A DNA stretch of 64,000 bases from Protoeuglena noctilucae. Its lineage: Eukaryota. Location of the stretch: the NCBI GenBank assembly GCA_958009085.1, contig OY253686.1, positions 372,001 to 436,000 on the forward strand, written 5' to 3'. The notes below the pieces were generated by a model. The model was not told where the DNA came from. It worked only from the letters and a program-made list of their open reading frames with translations, and did not search any database. Shown here in pieces: positions 31,201-41,270 of the stretch; position 1 is the stretch's first letter, and every line of letters begins with the position of its first letter. Both the position numbers and the translations under genes were made by a program.

Positions 31201-34200
31201 CCCGCAGTCGCCATCGCAGCCGGATCCGGGGTTGCGGCAGGAGCGGCAGCCACGCTTCGCTGGGTTGGCGAGGACCCCGGCTCAGGCGTTGACTCCGACG
31301 CGAGGCCCTTGCCGCCCAGCACCATGCTCATGTTCCTGCAGATATGATTAAGAAGACAGCACGTTCGTGAGAGGGCCAGGCATGCCGGAGAGGGTCTGGA
31401 GCGAGCCAGTACCTGCTGAGCAGCACCCATCAATTTAATGTCAAGTGCGGGTTAAAACTTGCCACGCTCAGCTGCCCATCACACACTCACTGGATGGCCA
31501 CCATCGTGCCCGACACGGTCCTTGCACGGCCCTTCCGCAGACTCCGTGTACGGTCCCTGTGCAGCTGGCCCCTGTCACGAGACGCCGCCACCTCCTCCAC
31601 GTCCCGCTTGGCTTCAGCAAGGAGCCCGCGAATTGAGACGGGGCTGTGGCGACGGGGCTGGGACCCCTCTGCGTGAAGGGGCGGAGGTGGCAGGGCGTTG
31701 CAGGTGCGTCGCAGGGCAGGTGACGACGTGCCACTCAACGCTGCCATATGGCAATACGTCGCTAGGGTGCGGAAGGCATACGTTCTCGCGACCTGTTGGT
31801 GCCTAATGACCCCGAAGGCATGATGCTATCTGGGCTCGGCTGGGATCGGCAAACAACCTGCGCAAACGGCCTCACCCATTTCTGACGTCGTTGCGTCGTC
31901 CGGGTTCCCCGAGAAGCCGCCGTACCGGCTCCCGGATCCCATGGCCACAATGGTAGCGGCCGACAAGAAGGGGCCGGGCGGGGCCAGCGGCAGCCTCTGG
32001 CCGGGCCAGGGCGCGCCTGCGGGGTGCGCCCCGTATGACTCATCGCCCGCGCCGGCCAGCGACAGGGACACCGGGCTGGGACCGACGCCGCCGGTGGCAG
32101 CGCCAGGAACGGCGCCCCCTGCAGCGGCGGCTGCAGGCGCAGTCGGCCTCCCAACGTCGTGCCGGGCCCTGGGCTGGACGCCCTCCCCGCTGACGCCGGC
32201 CCACGTAGAGTTGTCCGCGACCCCAGGTACATGCCATGAGGGCGCGGTGGGGTCGGGGGTCGGGGCCGACGCGGGGCCCGTTGTTAGTTCTGAGAGCGAG
32301 TTGGCTTGTGCGCGGGGTGCGGCGTAAGAGGAAGCGGCCTTGGAAACGGGCGGGCGGTGGCGTGGCTTGGAAGACGAAACCGTCTTGGGCGGGGCGGGGG
32401 GCTTGGGCGGGGGCTTAGGGACGCCGAACCACTCCCGCATGGCCTGGGCGACCTGCAGGGAACAGCGTCGCAACAGCATGGTTAGCTCAGTTAGTTGCAA
32501 TTATGAATATAAGAATGAAATGGGGTGTCGCAGAGGTGAAGCAACGCGGCGACGAACGAGCGCGAGGCATGGGCCGAGGACAGCAGTCTTGTGCCCTGGG
32601 CTGTGTGGCACGGCACGGCATGGCACCTGGGCTCCCATTTGCAGGTATCGTTCTTCTGTGTTGAGGTCGACGCTGTTGAGCAGGTTGGCTTGCTGCTGGG
32701 GGCTGAGCGTGGTGAGGAGTTGGCTGGTGAGGATGGTGGCGTCGCTGGGTGGGGGGCGGGAGATGAAGAACGACACCTGCGGGTGCGTGCGAGAGAGCCA
32801 CATTAAAGCTGCACTTGCACAGGTGCGTTCGAACAACAACAGACGTCGCTCGACATGCAAGCTGTTACAGCAGGCCAGGGGGTGACTCGCCTCGAGGGTG
32901 CACGCGAGTGCGGTGGGGCAGACCTGCCCAATGACGCGCCGAGCACACCCAGCCTTGGAGTTGGAGGCATCGAAGGTGCACGATTGGTAAGAAAATCCGA
33001 GCATCGAGGACTCGAGGATCTTGAGGAAACGCGTGCTGCGGTCCAGCGCCTCCACGTCTGCGCCATGAGCAATGTATGGCAATCTAGGGTGGTGAGGTGT
33101 AGACTCGTGCCAGGGAGTAGCAAAGCACGTAACGTGGGTGGCAAGGGTAGCGACAAAGCACTTTACGTGTGTCTATGCCGGTCACACACGTCCATGTTAT
33201 GTGATGCAATGTAACGCAGTCTGCAGCTGCTGCTGCTCGCCTTCCGGGTCGCACACGTTGCAGAAGCACATGTTGGACTTGGAGGTGGAGTGCGCGTGGA
33301 CGTCCATGAAGAGCGCCAGGTCGTACTGCAGGCATAGTGGTCAACCTCGGCACGTGAGGTTTCGAGAGCGTTTCTTACATGTCACATGTTTCTCATCATG
33401 AGACAGCCGTTGGAAACTCGAAAAGGCTGTCCACAGGCCATTCGTGCCACCACCGCGCCACTCACGTGATCGCTGGCATGCAGCTGTTCCGCCAGGCGCT
33501 TGATGTGGTACAGGGGTGGCTCGAGTGCCTCGGTGCCCGCCGCCCACATACGGTTCAAATCGACGCCCGTGGAGTCCGTGCGGTAGTTGCCCAGGTAGCA
33601 GCCGTCCGGGTTGATCATGGGAACGATGACGAAGGTCACGGCGCGGCGCAGAGCCTGCGCTTCGGGACTGCACCGACCGAGGCAGGGTGCAGCAGTGGGT
33701 GCGAAGTGCGCACGTTAAGCTGGCCGAGGTCACGGGCGCTGGCCAGACCAAAGAAACTGACAAAGTAAGAACGCATCGTGTGTAAGAACAAGCAAAGGAT
33801 GAAAGGAAGGGCGCTTGTGGCAGCCACAGATGCGGTGGCCTCGCCTGTCCTCGACGATGAAGTTGAGGAGCCCCTCGGTCACAAAGCTCGAGGGCGTCTC
33901 GCCCGGATGAACGCGTCCCGTGATGAGGGCCACCGGGCGGGGCATACCCGCCTCAAGGCGGGCCAGCTCCGCCTCTGGGTCAGACACCGTGATGCAGTCG
34001 ATGCGGCGGCCCTGGAGGCTCCGGCAAAGGAGCTCCCTACGCACGTACGGGAGCTGCGGGCGGGAATTCCGGTTGCGGTTCGAGCCCGCGGCCGTGCGCG
34101 GTGCAGCGCAGGGCGTCCGGGGCATTGCTGCGACGCAGCGGGCGCAGCGCAGCGGTGCTGCAGCAGTAGAGATGACGCAGCGGGGGCGCAGTCGCACCCG

Positions 34201-35393
34201 GAGGCTCTCCAGGAGCGCCAGGTGCCGCGTGAGTCGCGAATAGGAGTATGGGAAGGAGTAGGCGAACTCGTAGGCGTCGTCCTCACGGTCAAACGTGAAT
34301 GCGAAGCTGAGGACGTAGGCCTTGCGGTGCGCGGGGGACCTGTAGTAGAACTGCGAGGGCGCAACGTGGCGAGGATTCGACGGAGGATGTGCAAATCGTA
34401 AGCATATTGGAAGCAACATCACCAGAGATGACACCGTGGCCAGAGACCGGAGCGCCCCCTCACCACGTTGCGCGCGGGAATGCGCTCCCAGCGGGGCCGA
34501 GACGAGGACCGGACGAGCGGGGTCATCGAATCACGATACAGGGACCGTTGCTTGCTGAAGTTGACAATGGAGAAGAGGACGTGCTGGTCAGCCTGGCAGT
34601 TGCCGACCTGCGAGAGGGGAGCGAATCGCCTGCTGGGCACTGCTCCCGCTGGCAGCGGCTTCTACATGTGCTTACTCATCGAAATAACCAGAAGAGAGGG
34701 TCTCGGGGATGCTTGACGGCAAGATGAGAGAGAGAAAGACTGCAGCACTTTGCGACCTCCGCTGCTGGCCCGGAGACGCCTCGCCTGGAAGTGGAACCAA
34801 AGGCGGTGACGCGGAGCCATCGTATCTGGTCGCAGCCATATCTCCCACTCGCTCGACGAGGCGGGCTTGACCACGCCCAGGTTGCCCCCCTCAAACGCTG
34901 CCGAGAACACCAGGCTTCCCCGGGGTGGAGCGGTCGATGCGTGGGCGCGAACTCGGCTGGCGGAGGCGATAGAAGAGGGGGAGGGCCCCACCGACGTCGC
35001 GCTTTGCGAGGCGCGCCGGCCCAGGCTGGTCGAATGCCGCAGCGCGACATTTCCCGGCTCGTCCGGGCCCTCCGTCCTGCGCCGGAGCGGAGCGCCGCGC
35101 GGTGTCGCACAATGGAGCATCGTGTAAGGGCGCGACAGGTGCCCGCGCACGCAAAGCCATCACCTGCCCTGCTCTTCGTCAGGCCGCGCCACGCCCTCGT
35201 CGCTCTCGTCGTCAGAGTCGTCGCTCCCACCCTGCCCACCCTCCTCCAGCTCCTCGATGACCTCCGCCTCCTCCTCATCCGCGCCTCGCGAGGTCTCGGG
35301 CTCGCCCGGCCCTCCGCTGGGTCGAGGGGCGTTCTCGAGGGGCGTTGCTCGGCCCTCAGGGCCTTCCGCGCCCGCCTGTTCCTCCTCCCGCAT
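28267..35393 (-). CDS. Cytosolic carboxypeptidase (M14D tubulin deglutamylase, CCP6/AGBL4-like) with a very long disordered C-terminal tail
   Basis: FEGGNL, RLWFHF, YEFAYSFPYSYSRL, ITGRVHPGETPSSF (zinc ligands), VPMINPDGCYLGNYR...GVDLNRMW, MDVHAHS, SKAGCARR, CTLEAS. Tail exons continue at plausible splice sites to 28267; tail joining is less certain than the catalytic core. Confidence 0.88.
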
Positions 35394-36106
35394 CTGGCAC
35401 CCCTCGCAGCAGGCTTGCAGCCCGCCGGGCGGTCGAGCTCAGCCGCACCCCGCCATGCCAGCCCATGCGCGAGCTATATCTCGTTCCTAACAAACCCAAG
35501 GACTCTGCTGGGCAAAGCGTAGAGTGCAGACGAGGCCCGGCCCGCCGGGTGTTTTGAGCGCTCCAGTGTCGCGCACACGGCGTCCTCTGGCGGCCGCTTT
35601 TGCCAGGAACAATTAGCTTCCCCAGCTGGAACACTCCATCTAGCTCGCTACCTATCCGCCCCGGTGGACATGCGGGGCTCACTGGCCCTGACTCGTCCCT
35701 CTCTCTACCTGTATTAGGGCGTCCGGCCCAAGGGCAAGAGCCATGGCGCCTCCTCGTGTCCCCTCCCCATAGCGCAGATCATAAAGGCGCCGAGAGGCGG
35801 GGAGCAGGGGAATAGCGGCGAAGCGGTGTGTCTCGGGGGAGCGGAGGGAAACGGGGGCAAACGAGGGTTACGAGGGTTCCCAAGGCGAACAAATTTTCAT
35901 TCCGGCAGGGAGGGCATTGCGACGGGCTGTTCAACACTTAGACCCGCAGAGGTGAATCGGGCTTCCTCGCGGCTCCCTGGCCTGCGTGGAGCTCCCAAGG
36001 CAGATGCGAGTTTTAGCGCAGGCGAAGGCCGGCAAATCACTTCTGCGAGTTGTCGAAAACACTAATATTTCAAGGGTCGCGCTCGCAGGCCCATATCGAC
36101 CGTCAT

Positions 36107-36937
36107 GCCGCGCTCTCGGCGTGGTGTCTGGTGGAGTCGCCCGCGAGTGTGTGGTATGTATACCTGGTGGGTACCGTCCTTCTCGATCAACAAGCGCGCC
36201 GACCGTCTTGAGGCCACTACGAGGGCCCATCACCAGGCCTGCCTGCCAGCCCGTAGCAGTATCGCTGCCCCACCACGCTCACGAGCGTGTGGTGGGACAG
36301 CGGCACTTCTGAGGGCTGGTAGGTGGGTGTGTCCATTGATCCCTCTTAACGGCCTCCAGACGGTCGGCGCGCATGTTGTGGATCGAGAAGGCTGTCCCGG
36401 GTGGGTGACCGCGACGACGTTCGCCGTCGCTTGGTTACATTCCCCAGGCACATTGGCATGCAGCCTTCATATTGGGTGCTCCTTGATTATGAAGGAAGTA
36501 CAGAGTAGTAGCGAACTACTGCTTCTTACTTTCCTTCATAGTCAAGCTGGTGCCCATATGGAGGTAAGGCTGCTTGTGCTTGGAATGTAACCAAGCGACG
36601 GCGAGTCTTGTATGCACCCGTCCCACGCATGGGTCCCGGTGGCGTCCGCGAGGGCGCCGCAGCGATGGACATCGATGGGGAGGCTGCGGGGGAGGACACC
36701 TCTGGGGACTGCAATGGCATTGAACCTGTCTCTGTGTCGGGGTCCGAGTCCGTGTCGGGACTCGGACCCCGACACGGACGTTCGTCTGCAAGGGTCTCCC
36801 TTGCAGTCCTCAGAGGTGTCTTTTGAGTGCTGGTCTGGGTCAGAGTTCGGGTGGGAGTCGGAAGAGGGGGAAGGGGAGTAGGGGGATGAGGGTGAGTAGG
36901 GAGATGTGGGGGACGACAGCGACACGGCCAGCGCGGC
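36107..36937 (+). ncRNA. Candidate multi-hairpin structured RNA (pri-miRNA/hpRNA-like) or fold-back element
   Basis: Three long imperfect inverted repeats (about 36162-36401, 36416-36607 and 36691-36824) enclosed by gccgcgct 36107-14/agcgcggc 36930-37. Includes a perfect 23-bp pair (36421-43/36582-604). Confidence 0.6.
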
Positions 36938-37175
36938 TGTATCGACCCCGGTCCTGAGACGAGCTTACCACCACGACTGCCTCCCGCTGATGTTTGCAGA
37001 AGGAGGCAATCGTGGTGGCTAAAGAGAAGCTCCCCTGCCCATCGGCGTCACTTGCACGCCGCTGCCGGCGACAGGCGTGCCAGGCCCTATGCCTCCCTCC
37101 GTTGTCATCGAGCACTTGCGTGTTTCATGTATGCGATTCGCCAGACATCGGCAGCGGAGGAGCGAGGCGCGTCAC

Positions 37176-40100
37176 ATGGCGGGGTTTCGCCTCCTAGCTT
37201 GGCTTCCGAAGGTGAGCGGCGCGCTCGGATGCGGCGACCGCCGGTCCCGGTCGCTGTTGCCACCCACTTTGTAGAGAGTAATTTTTCCTTCCCGCTCCCG
37301 CCGCGCGCAGCCGGTGCTGTTATCCTGCAGCAACGTTGCTGTCCACCTTCTCAATTCCCCCGCATCGCGGCGGGTTCACCACGAGCCTCCCGCAGCGGAG
37401 GTTGAGGACAGTCCAGATGATGGAATTCTGCCCCTCGAGGAGGGGGAGCCCGGCGGCTACGCGTGGCCCGACAAAGGTGAGTACCCGAAGATGGGAGCTT
37501 TTGACTGGCCGCCCCGCCGAACCGAAGGGGTGAACGCGGCGGCTGTGCTACCCCGGTCATCAGCAAGCGAGCGATCTAGATATCTGCGCTACGCGCGGGG
37601 TATGCGGCGCACGGCGCGGCGCCGACGTGTCCCTGTTTTCCATCACAGCTCCGCAGCATGTCCCGGCCCGCGTATTGGACTCCCTCCGGGCGGAAGCAAG
37701 CCCGCCAGCACCTCGCGATGGCAACGTCCAGTCCAAACCTTACGTCATGTGCGGTGAGATGCCGCGCGGGCGTGCTGCCCCTGCTTTTGGTGTCAATCCA
37801 TGCCCTGACCGCCGGCCGCCGGCCCGCCCGGCCCCTTTCCTACGATGGGCGAAGCTCGTTGCTTGAGATTTGACCAGCGCGACGCATAGACCCCGCCCGG
37901 CCTGCGCGCAGAGATGGTCCCCGTTGGTGTCGTCGTCCAGTCTGCGGACGGCACGGTGTGCTCCTGGAACCTCCGCCTGATGATGCAGCTGCTCCAGGCG
38001 ATGGAGCTGGCCGCCACCGCGGACCACGCGTCCCTGCGGACGGCGGCGCAACTCCTGCAGGCCCTCAGCACATTGCCGATGCGGGAACGGGCCATGGCGC
38101 TCTCGAGCATCGAATGGTCCCTTCGGGACGTCTCTCGGCCCGTATGGAACTTCACGGACGCATCCAATCGGGTCCTGGGGCCTCTCTCCCTGCCCGACCT
38201 TGCCCGGTGGTGCGCGGCAGGCAGGTTTGCACCGTGCGACACCCAAGCCCTCCTATGCCACAGGCGAGCGCCGCAGTCGTTGCTATGTGCCAGCGCACTC
38301 GCTCTGCATACCGCCCTGCGCCTGCCGCATGCTGCGTGCCCCAGAAGGTTCCACGCCGTGCTGCCGACGCGCTCAGCTGACTTCCCTGTCTGTGCAGCCT
38401 GACGGGGGTGTGGATGAGCCTCGCCCTGGCGTGCCTCCTGACGGGCGTGCCGCTCACGGGGCTTCCCGAGGTGCAGGGGACGCTGGCGCGGGCAGGGGAC
38501 GGGCGCGGGAACCAGCTGCGGATGCTGATGCCCAGCGCGTCTGGGTCAGATGCCACCGTCAGCGTTCAGGAGGGGTCGCTGAGCAAGCGCACGTCGACGG
38601 TCACGATCGCCGCGGGCGGCTCGCTGGGGCACGGCTTTTACGGCCTCTCGCAAGAGGCGGAGGCGGCGGCGGGGCCTCGGCCGCAGGTGGCGCGGGCGTT
38701 CAGCCAGCTGGCGCCCGCCACGCGCGGCCTGGTCCATGTGTCGCCCGGCGAGGGGAGCAATGACGGCAGCCGCTCGCTGGCGGCCTCCCGGCGCGCCTCC
38801 GGGGCCAACAACTCCGCATTGGGCACGTCCCCCCGTGTGGGCAGCCGGGTGGGCTCTTTGAAGGAGGAGGCCGGGGCAGGGCGCCGGAGGGCCGACGAAG
38901 ACGCGGAAATGACCGATCTGGAGGCCGGCCTCGTCGAGGAGCTCAGGATAGGTGCGGGACGGCGCGGAAAGGAAACGGCACAAACTCGCCTGCGGTTCTC
39001 CATGCCTGCAGCGAGGCTCACGAGTCGCTCAAGTGTCCATCTTCTATCTCTGAAGCTCTGCGTTTTATTTTTCGCGCAGTGCGTGCCGGTCAGGGCACTC
39101 CGGGCCGCAAGGGCGCCCCGGCTTTGACGGTCCCCGCTGAGACGGACAACGACGTGGAGATGGCGGATATGATGGAAGTCGACACGATCAAGCGAATGAT
39201 CCTCGTCCTGGACACCAACGTGCTCCTGGCGAACTGGTCTGCCGTCGCCAAGATCATGGCTGCGTCAGAGGAGGCGAGTCGCTTTAGGTCTGCGGGAGTG
39301 GAGTGACGGACCACCGCCACGCTGGCGGTGCTTTCTTGGCAGTGGCCCTGGCCGAGCGACGTTCACTGATGTAGCACACGTGCAAAACACCCGTGTAGCC
39401 AATAGAACACCTGTGTAGGGACAGCGAGGGCGCATGGCCACTTGCCACCGTGACGCTTCCGCTTGACCTGCAGATGCGCAAGCAGCCTCGCGAGGGCGTC
39501 GTCCACGAGGTGCGTGGGTACCTGCCCTACGCTGTTCTGAACGAGCTGGACGCGCTCAAGACGTCGACCTCAGTGCACGGGGGCCAGGGGCAAACGACCG
39601 GGGAGCTGGCGCGGCGGGCGCTGCGTCTCATCACTGAGAACATCGCCCGTGGTGGTCACACGTTCTTCGTCGGACAGAGCCTGGAGGAGTATGCCGAGAG
39701 CGAGCGCGCGGGAGGGGCTTTCGGGCTCAAGAACGATGGTGAGCGGCGGCTGCGATGCAATCGGCGAGGCTGGTGTTGAAGCACGCCCGTCAGGGCGAAT
39801 GCCAGGGTACATGCTATGGCGATGCGTAGAGTGCGGAGTTCGCCTCGCCCGTCCCTGTGTCGCAGACAGCATCCTTCAGGCTTGCCTCCAATTGATGAAC
39901 ACAATGGCGGTTAAAGTACGCGTCTCGCCCAACGTCGTCGCGCACCGTGGAGTCGTCATGGCAACCAACGACAACGCCCTGCGGTGCGCACACTCAAACT
40001 GTCCGCTTTTTACTTGCCTTGCCGCAGTTTCATGCTCTCTGTTTGCAAACCGAGTCAAAATAGCGTGCAGGCAACCCAGTTGCCCCCCTTACCCACCTGT

Positions 40101-41270
40101 ACCCACTGTTATCTCCGCAGTGTCAAAGCCCATCTGAGCGGCGTGCAGGCCATGGGCATCCACCAAGTGGAGCAGCACGTGGACAGCAGAGACCTGGACA
40201 GCCTCATTGGCGTCATTCTGTCCAACGCCGCGCACGTCGCCAAGCCAGGAGGCCTGCAAGCTCTCTCCCACCCTGCACGGCAGTGGCTGCCTCGCACGGA
40301 CATGGCGCGGATGGCTGCTGCGCAACACTCGCGCAGCCAAGCATCGGACGAGGGGTCGCCCGGCGCGCACTCGGCATCGGCACCCGGGTCCCGCGGCAGC
40401 TCCCAGAGATCCCTGCCAAGTACGGCTCCCGTGCCCACGCGGCCCACGCGCTCTTCGCCGGGCAACTCCCTGCGGTCCATGCCGGTCCAGCGCGCGAGCT
40501 CGTTGCTGGGCATGAGTCAGGCCATGCAGCAGCTGGCCATCCCGCTCGGCTCCTCCCCTATTATGCCCAACCAAGCCGTGTCGGTCCCGGTCTGCGGCCC
40601 GGGCCTGGGCTCGCTCCCGAGCCCTCTTCAGCTGCAGCTGCAGCACTACCTCGCAGCGCAGGGTGCTGGCATGGCCACCGGGCCCTGGATGGCCCCGGAG
40701 ATGGCCGGCTTACTTCCCATGGCCCCTATGGCACCCCACGGCGCAATCTCCGGGCCAGCCATGATCCAGATGCCAATGCCGGCGCCAGGATCGGCCGCGC
40801 CCGCGTTTGCGCCCCCGCCGGCGCTTTCTGTGGACGACATGGCGCAGGAACTGCTTCTTTGCGTGCGCAGCCTGGCGCCTGTAATCGAGGCCGCCCTCCG
40901 CTGGGCCCTGGGGGACCTCTGGGAGCACGTCGCCAAGCGGGACCCGCCGTCGACCAATTGGACAGCAGCCGACTGCGCCGCGCTGCTGCACGAGCACTAC
41001 CAGGGTGTCTTCTCGGACCTTCTGCCGAAGGGCACCCGCGGGCGCCTGGGGGATTTGGAGCGGCTGATGCAGCGCTTGGAGCGGCGCAAAGTGACGATGG
41101 GCGACCTGTCCACCACGCTGGTGTCGACGCGAGGAGTGATGGTCGCCCTGGAGTTGGGCCTCGCCAGGAAGGGCCTCGTGCAGGCCGCCAGCGCCGTGAG
41201 GCAGATCCTTGCACGCATGTCACTGTGGTCCGGCCGCGTCCCGGGGGCCGAGGGAGGCCCGCCCGTCTGA
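37176..41270 (+). CDS. SWT1-like PIN-domain RNA endonuclease; 5' exons uncertain
   Basis: PIN motifs ILVLDTNVLL, LPYAVLNELDALK, ARRALRLI, ND-DSILQACL, VMATNDNALR-VKA. C-terminal helical segment (LGDLWEHVAKRDPP...WTAADCAALLHEHYQGVFSDL) resembles the Swt1 C-terminal domain. Confidence 0.78.

What the first reader, a model, noticed from the sequence alone, without database searches (positions are those of the whole stretch)
36107..36937. Three-armed giant fold-back element: candidate polycistronic small-RNA precursor or new large ncRNA
Seen: arm 1 (about 36162-36401) has ccttctcgatc 36178-88/gatcgagaagg 36381-91, gcgcgccgaccgtct 36194-208/agacggtcggcgcgc 36358-72, gcctgccagccc/gggctggtaggt and an apical cccaccac..gctc/gagc..gtggtggg. 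Arm 2 (36416-36607) has a perfect 23-bp pair 36421-43/36582-604, plus gcagcctt/aaggctgc, cttgattatgaaggaa/ttccttcatagtcaag and agtagtag-cgaa-ctactgct. Arm 3 (36691-36824) has gacacctctggggactgcaa/ttgcagtcctcagaggtgtc and a 21-bp stem 36731-51/36758-78. The arms are unrelated in sequence, lie close together and are enclosed by gccgcgct/agcgcggc. Many deviations are G-U on the + strand (A-C on the - strand), which argues for RNA-level selection. Arm 2 is AT-rich, so GC bias cannot explain it. An AT-rich ctaatattt (36062-70) lies just upstream, divergent from the CCP gene. Known: chlorophyte miRNAs arise from long imperfect hairpins. Inference: a clustered pri-miRNA/hpRNA locus or an undescribed multi-arm RNA.
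Basis: partly seen in the sequence, partly recalled or inferred. Interest (0 to 1): 0.8.

Follow-up and report, generated by a model that had tools for sequence, protein, structure and literature searches.

The report
Clustered long RNA hairpins in alga
Three long, unrelated fold-back hairpins sit side by side between two genes of a tiny marine green alga; they look like substrates for its RNA-dicing enzyme, but the partner protein that normally uses diced RNAs was not found, so their role is still open.

Summary
The three arms are real, single-copy and far beyond chance (z about -10 to -14 each; the top three local fold-backs in 164 kb). Two details weaken. The enclosing 8-bp stem is chance-level, so these are three independent hairpins rather than one three-armed fold. 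The G-U bias holds for arms 2-3 (13:1) but not arm 1 (7:6). The host is a pedinophyte green alga. The cluster lies between divergent, spliced CCP and SWT1-like PIN genes. A second, unrelated two-arm cluster lies head-to-head between genes on contig C23, so this is a class of loci. The genome has a divergent Dicer-like gene, but six searches found no Argonaute. No Rfam family, snRNA-type promoter, telomerase template, coding signal or dispersed copy was found. Best reading (0.5): a + strand multi-hairpin transcript cut by Dicer, yielding guides if an Argonaute was missed (0.3) or acting by cleavage alone (0.2). Rivals: decayed inverted duplications (0.2), a one-per-chromosome DNA element (0.12), another structured RNA (0.12). 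Transcription and small RNAs are not shown.

The parts
36062..36070 (+). AT-rich TATA-like tract about 30 nt upstream of a possible start; not the snRNA-type promoter of this genome
   Evidence: sequence; the U6/U2 upstream element is absent here
36104..36158 (+). small local 5' hairpin that outcompetes the proposed enclosing stem
   Evidence: pair probability 0.96
36178..36391 (+). arm 1, long imperfect hairpin, 75% half-to-half identity, no strand bias (G-U:A-C 7:6)
36421..36604 (+). arm 2, 50% GC hairpin with a perfect 23-bp basal stem, G-U:A-C 8:0
36639..36660 (+). short 9-bp GC hairpin in the linker between arms 2 and 3
   Evidence: pair probability 0.99
36691..36824 (+). arm 3, two helices of 23 and 21 bp split by an internal loop, G-U:A-C 5:1; ends in the only T4 run on + between 36015 and 37281
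36865..36913 (+). G-rich tract with a 9-nt period and G-quadruplex pattern; resembles the 5' part of introns of this genome, and the pattern is common (23 on + in the window)
36892..36999 (+). candidate 108-nt intron that would join the hairpin exon to the leader of the downstream gene; unproven (donor score 8.5 is within the range of true donors, acceptor score 5.6 is below all 12 true acceptors)
   Evidence: splice matrix from 12 RNA-shown introns; no RNA joint seen
36961..37032 (.). fourth, shorter hairpin; pairs better on the - strand
36105..36590 (+). 161-codon orphan ORF across arms 1-2, judged non-coding
   Evidence: only identical copies of itself plus one repeat-protein chance hit; codon score -0.43, between the 5th and 25th percentile of 192 long frames
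33000..35595 (-). flanking gene: cytosolic carboxypeptidase (M14), spliced, divergent from the cluster (laid part only)
   Evidence: 6 RNA joints; Peptidase_M14 E 4.5e-4; spliced frame
37100..41270 (+). flanking gene: SWT1-like protein (weak GYF, PIN_4, weak HEPN_Swt1), spliced, with an intron in its leader
   Evidence: 6 RNA joints; PIN_4 E 4e-7 and HEPN_Swt1 E 0.18; GYF E 0.12

Best explanation
An endogenous multi-hairpin RNA locus. A + strand non-coding transcript starts near 36090 from the promoter region shared with the divergent CCP gene. It is either its own unit or an extended leader of the SWT1-like mRNA (inferred). It folds into three independent long imperfect hairpins (computed), and these are cut by the genome's Dicer-like enzyme (enzyme gene shown, cutting inferred). 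If an Argonaute exists and was missed, the cuts release guide RNAs of about 21 nt, as in polycistronic MIRNA or hairpin-siRNA loci (about 0.3). If it is truly lost, the cut itself is the function: it destroys or trims the transcript that carries the hairpins, as DCL3 does to fold-back mRNAs in Chlamydomonas (about 0.2).
For: Fold far beyond shuffles and beyond neighbouring DNA. The + strand is favoured: G-U:A-C 20:7, p 0.019; arms 2+3 13:1, p 0.002 post hoc. Arms 2 and 3 keep longer perfect blocks (21 and 18 bp) than simulated neutral decay (p 0.03 and 0.017; 300 simulations each). A Dicer-like gene lies at G000:C5 886.5-895.7 kb with DEAD, Helicase_C and both halves of two RNase III domains. 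A second cluster of two adjacent unrelated arms lies at C23:90454-90905, also between divergent genes. All five clustered arms have 71-76% half-to-half identity. The layout matches plant non-homologous clusters of 271-1192 bp (PMC2812943, section 7). Direct DCL3 cleavage of fold-back mRNAs is described (PMC4817775, section 8).
Against: No Argonaute by Piwi, PAZ and ArgoL1 profiles, one motif pattern, and insect and plant Piwi-domain queries, nor by an AGO profile over about 761 kb held locally. Arm 1 (7:6) and both C23 arms (14:13) show no strand bias and fit neutral decay (p 0.29-0.71). No covariation data exist because no relative was found. No plausible target lies in the stretches compared (best match 21 nt, outside the arms). 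Five arms were tested, so p values of 0.02-0.03 are modest.
Confidence: 0.5

Rival explanations
1. Non-functional, decaying inverted duplications made by local template switching in long head-to-head intergenic regions; the strand bias comes from transcription-linked mutation or chance.
For: Arm 1 and the C23 arms fit uniform neutral decay and lack strand bias. No Argonaute was found. The C23 cluster lies between two copies of a 78%-identical direct repeat, a sign of local rearrangement.
Against: It needs three unrelated duplications within 650 nt, twice over, in a repeat-poor genome: no shared repeat between 164 kb of C19 and 320 kb of C23. No young near-perfect long repeat turned up in about 761 kb. 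Arms 2-3 have excess G-U and perfect blocks.
Confidence: 0.2
2. A DNA-level, one-per-chromosome element such as a short cryptic centromere or origin, marked by dyad symmetry (cruciforms), not an RNA.
For: Exactly one cluster in the 81% of C23 held (342,614 of 422,614 bases) and one in 164 kb of C19; none in 20 scattered 10-kb samples from 13 contigs. C23 arms have no strand bias. A centromere atlas calls the centromeres of all 4 algae sampled cryptic (10.64898/2026.09.17.752431, passage). Inverted-repeat centromeres of some yeasts are recalled, not looked up.
Against: G-U bias in arms 2-3 favours single-stranded pairing on one strand. Neither cluster lies in a GC trough. Transcribed genes come within about 500 and 80 nt of the C19 cluster. 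The same counts also fit scattered loci at about one per 500 kb.
Confidence: 0.12
3. A stable structured non-coding RNA (scaffold or decoy for double-strand-binding proteins) that is not diced, ending at the T4 run after arm 3.
For: T4 directly after arm 3 and none inside the element. A TATA-like tract lies upstream. No Argonaute was found.
Against: The upstream element shared by U6 and U2 of this genome is absent. The closing stem is not favoured. No Rfam family reaches its gathering score. The C23 cluster shares no sequence with it.
Confidence: 0.12
4. A relic of a fold-back or MITE-type transposon, or of a viroid-like or viral element.
For: Long inverted repeats are typical of such elements (general knowledge).
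Against: No second copy in the genome. The ends are not inverted repeats of each other. No ribozyme by Rfam or motif scan. No exact match of three arm 20-21-mers and no relative of the ORF in viral contigs.
Confidence: 0.05

Closest known systems
Plant non-homologous polycistronic MIRNA clusters (e.g. Ath-MIR859-774, Osa-MIR1876-1862d-1884b; PMC2812943)
   Same: Two or three unrelated long hairpins on one strand within about 1 kb, intergenic, lineage-specific sequence.
   Different: Spacers here are 29 and 86 nt (81-670 nt in the paper). No small-RNA reads, target or Argonaute shown. Different lineage.
Chlamydomonas DCL3 substrates: fold-back non-coding RNAs and UTR hairpins (PMC4817775)
   Same: Long imperfect fold-backs near or in transcripts, a chlorophyte Dicer-like enzyme without detected PAZ, and possible direct cleavage of the host RNA.
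   Different: Chlamydomonas has three AGO and three DCL genes (PMC12026948, passages). Here there is one detected DCL-like gene, no detected AGO, and the hairpins come in tight clusters between divergent genes.
Endogenous hairpin RNAs (hpRNA) of Drosophila and plants (search listing only)
   Same: Single-copy long imperfect inverted repeats with G-U pairs.
   Different: hpRNAs usually resemble a target gene (recalled); no such source gene was found here.
Rfam MIR8788, MIR1883, MIR848 (best Rfam scores)
   Same: Generic long-stem shape only.
   Different: Scores of 22-33 bits against gathering scores of 90-128; no sequence kinship.

Membership tests
Polycistronic MIRNA cluster | Several unrelated hairpins on the same strand within about 1 kb | tested here: met
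   arm 1 gives no strand signal
Polycistronic MIRNA cluster | Stems able to hold a 21-nt duplex with few mismatches | tested here: met
   47, 70 and 26 such windows in arms 1-3; computed only
Polycistronic MIRNA cluster | One transcript spanning the hairpins | tested here: inconclusive
   four metatranscriptome runs held as contigs cover both flanking genes but give no bridging piece
Polycistronic MIRNA cluster | Precise miRNA/miRNA* reads with 2-nt 3' overhangs | not testable with these tools
   no small-RNA run among the 12 listed
Polycistronic MIRNA cluster | Dicer-like enzyme in the genome | tested here: met
   C5 gene with DEAD, Helicase_C and two RNase III domains; very divergent, activity not shown
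Polycistronic MIRNA cluster | Argonaute in the genome | tested here: inconclusive
   0 matches in six searches; exon-wise search, no eukaryotic positive control, some contig ends lack telomeres
Polycistronic MIRNA cluster | Complementary target mRNA | tested here: inconclusive
   none in the stretches compared, under 3% of the genome; the genome-wide DNA search is not sensitive to 21-mers
MITE / fold-back transposon | Many dispersed copies | tested here: not met
   self-matches only
MITE / fold-back transposon | Terminal inverted repeats bounding the element | tested here: not met
   the 8-bp end match is at chance level, 19 of 122 controls
MITE / fold-back transposon | Short target-site duplication | not tested
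   element ends are undefined
snRNA-type (type 3 promoter) RNA, including telomerase RNA | Upstream element shared with U6 and U2 | tested here: not met
   13-mer at -67 (U6) and -75 (U2); 10 window matches at up to 2 mismatches, none within 1.9 kb of the cluster, chance mean 7.4
snRNA-type (type 3 promoter) RNA, including telomerase RNA | Template for the TTAGGG telomere repeat | tested here: not met
   no permutation inside 36100-37400 on either strand
Any Rfam family | Gathering score | tested here: not met
Viroid-like element / retrozyme | Self-cleaving ribozyme | tested here: not met
   no Rfam ribozyme at gathering score; no hammerhead core on + and only one lone core-like word on -
Short regional centromere | One per chromosome | tested here: inconclusive
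   one in 81% of C23 and one in 18% of C19
Short regional centromere | CENH3 occupancy | not testable with these tools
   needs ChIP

The most novel reading that the evidence does not exclude
This pedinophyte has lost Argonaute but kept Dicer, and uses clusters of long hairpins between divergent genes as dedicated, guide-free cleavage modules. Here they would sit in the leader of, or just upstream of, the mRNA for a SWT1-like PIN ribonuclease, so that one nuclease sets the level of another. (A second bold reading, one cluster per chromosome marking cryptic centromeres, is listed among the rivals at 0.12.)
Probability: 0.18. Interest if true: 0.78.

Novelty: new variant of a known kind. Interest (0 to 1): 0.5.

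Why it matters
No paper on small-RNA loci or RNAi genes of pedinophytes turned up in ten library searches, and the main text of the one pedinophyte genome preprint checked does not mention Dicer, Argonaute or miRNA (its supplements were closed). In the passages read, small green algae have both enzymes or neither (PMC4014436, PMC9871001). If the arms give guides, this is a polycistronic small-RNA locus in the sister lineage of core chlorophytes, which bears on how often miRNA-like genes arose. If Argonaute is really gone, it is a natural case of Dicer kept for guide-free cutting of its own dedicated substrates. The second cluster makes either reading testable genome-wide.

Tried and rejected
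RNA cover: four metatranscriptome runs of one study, held as contigs, match both flanking genes nearly letter for letter. On the arms they show only short loose-ended pieces that run on into unlike sequence (X4 from 36184; X2 at 36860-95), and 40 pieces were not displayed. Contigs cannot show absence, so this counts neither way. One enclosed three-armed RNA: rejected. Protein-coding reading: the 161-aa ORF has no relative but itself (same translation on 11 and 4 unnamed contigs, possibly the same species or assembly), no Pfam match and non-coding codon bias. snRNA-type promoter and telomerase template: not found. tRNA: none. Viral or prokaryotic source: 0 exact matches for three 20-21-mers in viral contigs, one 21-mer in prokaryotic genomes and one in JGI metagenomes. 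The search for syntenic relatives in metagenomes was run in the wrong reading frame; its one hit, L042, is spurious, so conservation in relatives is untested. A 10-mer found only upstream of both clusters (2 hits in 641 kb; 0 in a further 120 kb) was set aside: it is post hoc, about 0.6 are expected between the regions compared by my rough estimate, and it lies 1.1 kb from the C23 arms. A GC dip in the last bin was a script artefact, corrected. Single Dicer exons did not find solved Dicers, which shows how weak single-sequence queries are for RNAi genes of this organism. Earlier findings of the scan: none returned.

Full report
Observation. The 831-nt stretch folds at -500 kcal/mol on + (z -18.3) and -421 on - (z -17.5), each against 20 shuffles. 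Folded singly on +, arms 1-3 give z -14.1, -14.4 and -10.0 and MFEI 1.05, 1.24 and 1.14. In 164 kb of the contig they are the three strongest local inverted repeats (131, 86 and 61 bits; next 39). They share no word longer than 7 nt and have no second copy in the own-genome search (a lower bound by the tool's own warning). Two claims do not hold as written. The closing 8-bp stem is replaced by a local hairpin once flanks are included, and 19 of 122 control flank pairs have an equal match. The G-U excess is 20:7 overall (p 0.019) but 7:6 in arm 1, 8:0 in arm 2 and 5:1 in arm 3. A fourth short hairpin at 36961-37032 prefers the - strand.

Host and surroundings. The genome is 26.3 Mb in 27 contigs with TTAGGG telomeres. 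Its plastid carries green-type rbcL and minD, and MinD is 90% identical to that of Marsupiomonas sp. and 80% to Pedinomonas minor, so the host is a pedinophyte. Contigs of four marine metatranscriptome runs of one study show a spliced CCP gene on - reaching 35595 and a spliced gene on + from about 37100, with 12 joints. The latter encodes a PIN_4 domain with weak GYF and HEPN_Swt1 matches. The cluster thus fills a head-to-head interval. These contigs say nothing reliable about the arms themselves.

A class of loci. I scanned about 761 kb of nuclear DNA (2.9% of the genome). Only six local inverted repeats exceeded 55 bits: the three arms, two adjacent arms at C23:90454-90721 and 90757-90905 (178 and 58 bits), and one intronic hairpin at C23:99035-99147 (110 bits). 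The C23 pair folds at z -16. It lies between a PUS10-like gene on - and a gene on + that I read as an Arc1-type tRNA-binding protein from recalled motifs (no Pfam match). It shares no sequence with the C19 cluster and has no strand bias (14:13). All five clustered arms have 71-76% half-to-half identity. Against simulated neutral decay, arms 2 and 3 keep longer perfect blocks (p 0.03 and 0.017), while arm 1 and the C23 arms do not (p 0.29, 0.38, 0.71). C23 was read for 342,614 of 422,614 bases.

Machinery. A gene at C5:886.5-895.7 kb has DEAD and Helicase_C matches and both halves of two RNase III domains with the acidic catalytic signatures (signature residues recalled). It is very divergent: two of its exons did not find solved Dicers. 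A second RNase III gene lies on C1. Argonaute was not found with the Piwi, PAZ or ArgoL1 profiles, a recalled motif pattern, or insect and plant Piwi-domain queries, nor with a 12-sequence AGO profile over the held stretches. The same tool did find a 36-residue RNase III piece, so the Piwi blank has some weight. But there was no eukaryotic control, the search is exon-wise, and the assembly has open ends. I put the chance that an Argonaute was missed at 40-45%.

What it is not. No Rfam family reaches its gathering score. U6 and U2 of this genome share a 13-nt upstream element that is absent near the cluster, and there is no telomerase template. The 161-codon ORF is an orphan with non-coding codon bias. 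There are no dispersed copies, terminal repeats, ribozyme or viral match.

Mechanism. Shown: the folds, their rarity, a + strand bias in two arms, a second cluster and a Dicer-like gene. Inferred: transcription on +, cutting by that enzyme, and the fate of the products. The best reading (0.5) is a multi-hairpin Dicer substrate: guide production if an Argonaute was missed (0.3), or guide-free cleavage of the carrying transcript (0.2). A candidate intron 36892-36999 could link the hairpins to the SWT1-like leader, but its acceptor scores below all 12 true ones. Rivals: decaying inverted duplications (0.2), a one-per-chromosome DNA element (0.12; the counts fit, but there is no GC trough), an undiced structured RNA ending at the T4 run (0.12), and a mobile relic (0.05).

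Comparison with print. PMC2812943 (outline and section 7 read) describes plant clusters of unrelated miRNA hairpins of 271-1192 bp, mostly intergenic. PMC4817775 (passages and section 8) reports 118 DCL3-sensitive RNAs in Chlamydomonas, including 64 non-coding siRNA precursors, 5 mRNAs with 5' UTR precursors and 9 fold-back mRNAs without clear siRNAs, and concludes that DCL3 cleaves mRNAs directly. PMC4014436 and PMC9871001 (passages) list small algae that lack both enzymes, and the former says Chlorella and Coccomyxa have both. PMC12026948, PMC7994812 and 10.1101/2022.01.18.476847 (passages; section 6 of PMC7994812) gave context; the word stem 'Pedino' does not occur in the main text of the latter two. 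The pedinophyte genome preprint 10.1101/2021.10.04.463119 has no main-text mention of Dicer, Argonaute or miRNA (term search). The centromere atlas 10.64898/2026.09.17.752431 (three passages) calls all 4 algal centromeres cryptic. PMC11194562 (listing and start of abstract only) reports Argonaute-independent Dicer defence against viruses. No supplements were read; gene-presence tables there, and the closed bioRxiv ones, may bear on the Argonaute question. The locus works like a polycistronic hairpin-RNA gene, but membership of the MIRNA class is unproven because reads, target and Argonaute are all missing.

Verdict. A real, strong and non-random feature that belongs to a small class in this genome. 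It is most likely an RNA substrate of Dicer, with an unresolved and testable twist in the missing Argonaute. Interest 0.5; new variant of a known kind.

Noticed in passing
L077:454-905 (G000:C23:90454-90905): Second cluster of two adjacent unrelated long imperfect hairpins between divergent genes, lying between two copies of a 78%-identical 250-nt direct repeat and overlapped by an orphan 213-codon frame on - with near-coding codon bias.
   Followed up: partly
L077:9035-9147 (G000:C23:99035-99147): 110-bit hairpin inside what looks like a long intron, built from a local repeat unit, 8 kb from the second cluster.
   Followed up: partly
L008-L009 (G000:C5:886.5-895.7 kb, -): Very divergent Dicer-like gene with long low-complexity insertions and no detected PAZ, in a genome where no Argonaute was found.
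   Followed up: partly
L040:1434-1446 and the region upstream of U2 in L041: U6 and U2 share a 13-nt upstream element at -67 and -75; it could be used to find the telomerase RNA and other snRNA-type genes of this lineage.
   Followed up: partly
window 37100-41270: SWT1-like PIN protein with a GYF-like stretch at the N-terminus where animal SWT1 has a WW domain (recalled); intron in the 5' leader.
   Followed up: partly
window 33058-34784 and 39274-39473: 4 of the 12 RNA-shown introns begin with GC rather than GT, an unusually high share.
   Followed up: no
L017:80-300 (G000:C26): In the mitochondrial atp9 frame, AGA stands at several positions where arginine is not expected, suggesting a reassigned codon, as a listed paper on pedinophyte organelle codes (PMC12574857, listing only) may describe.
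   Followed up: no
L039:946-3621: A full-length insect AGO2-like Argonaute gene on a 51-kb contig of the viral collection, next to an AT-rich virus-like gene.
   Followed up: no
window 35861-35878: Tandem 9-mer resembling a telomere-box motif about 300 nt upstream of arm 1; a similar motif lies about 260 nt upstream of the C23 arms (L077:190-200).
   Followed up: no
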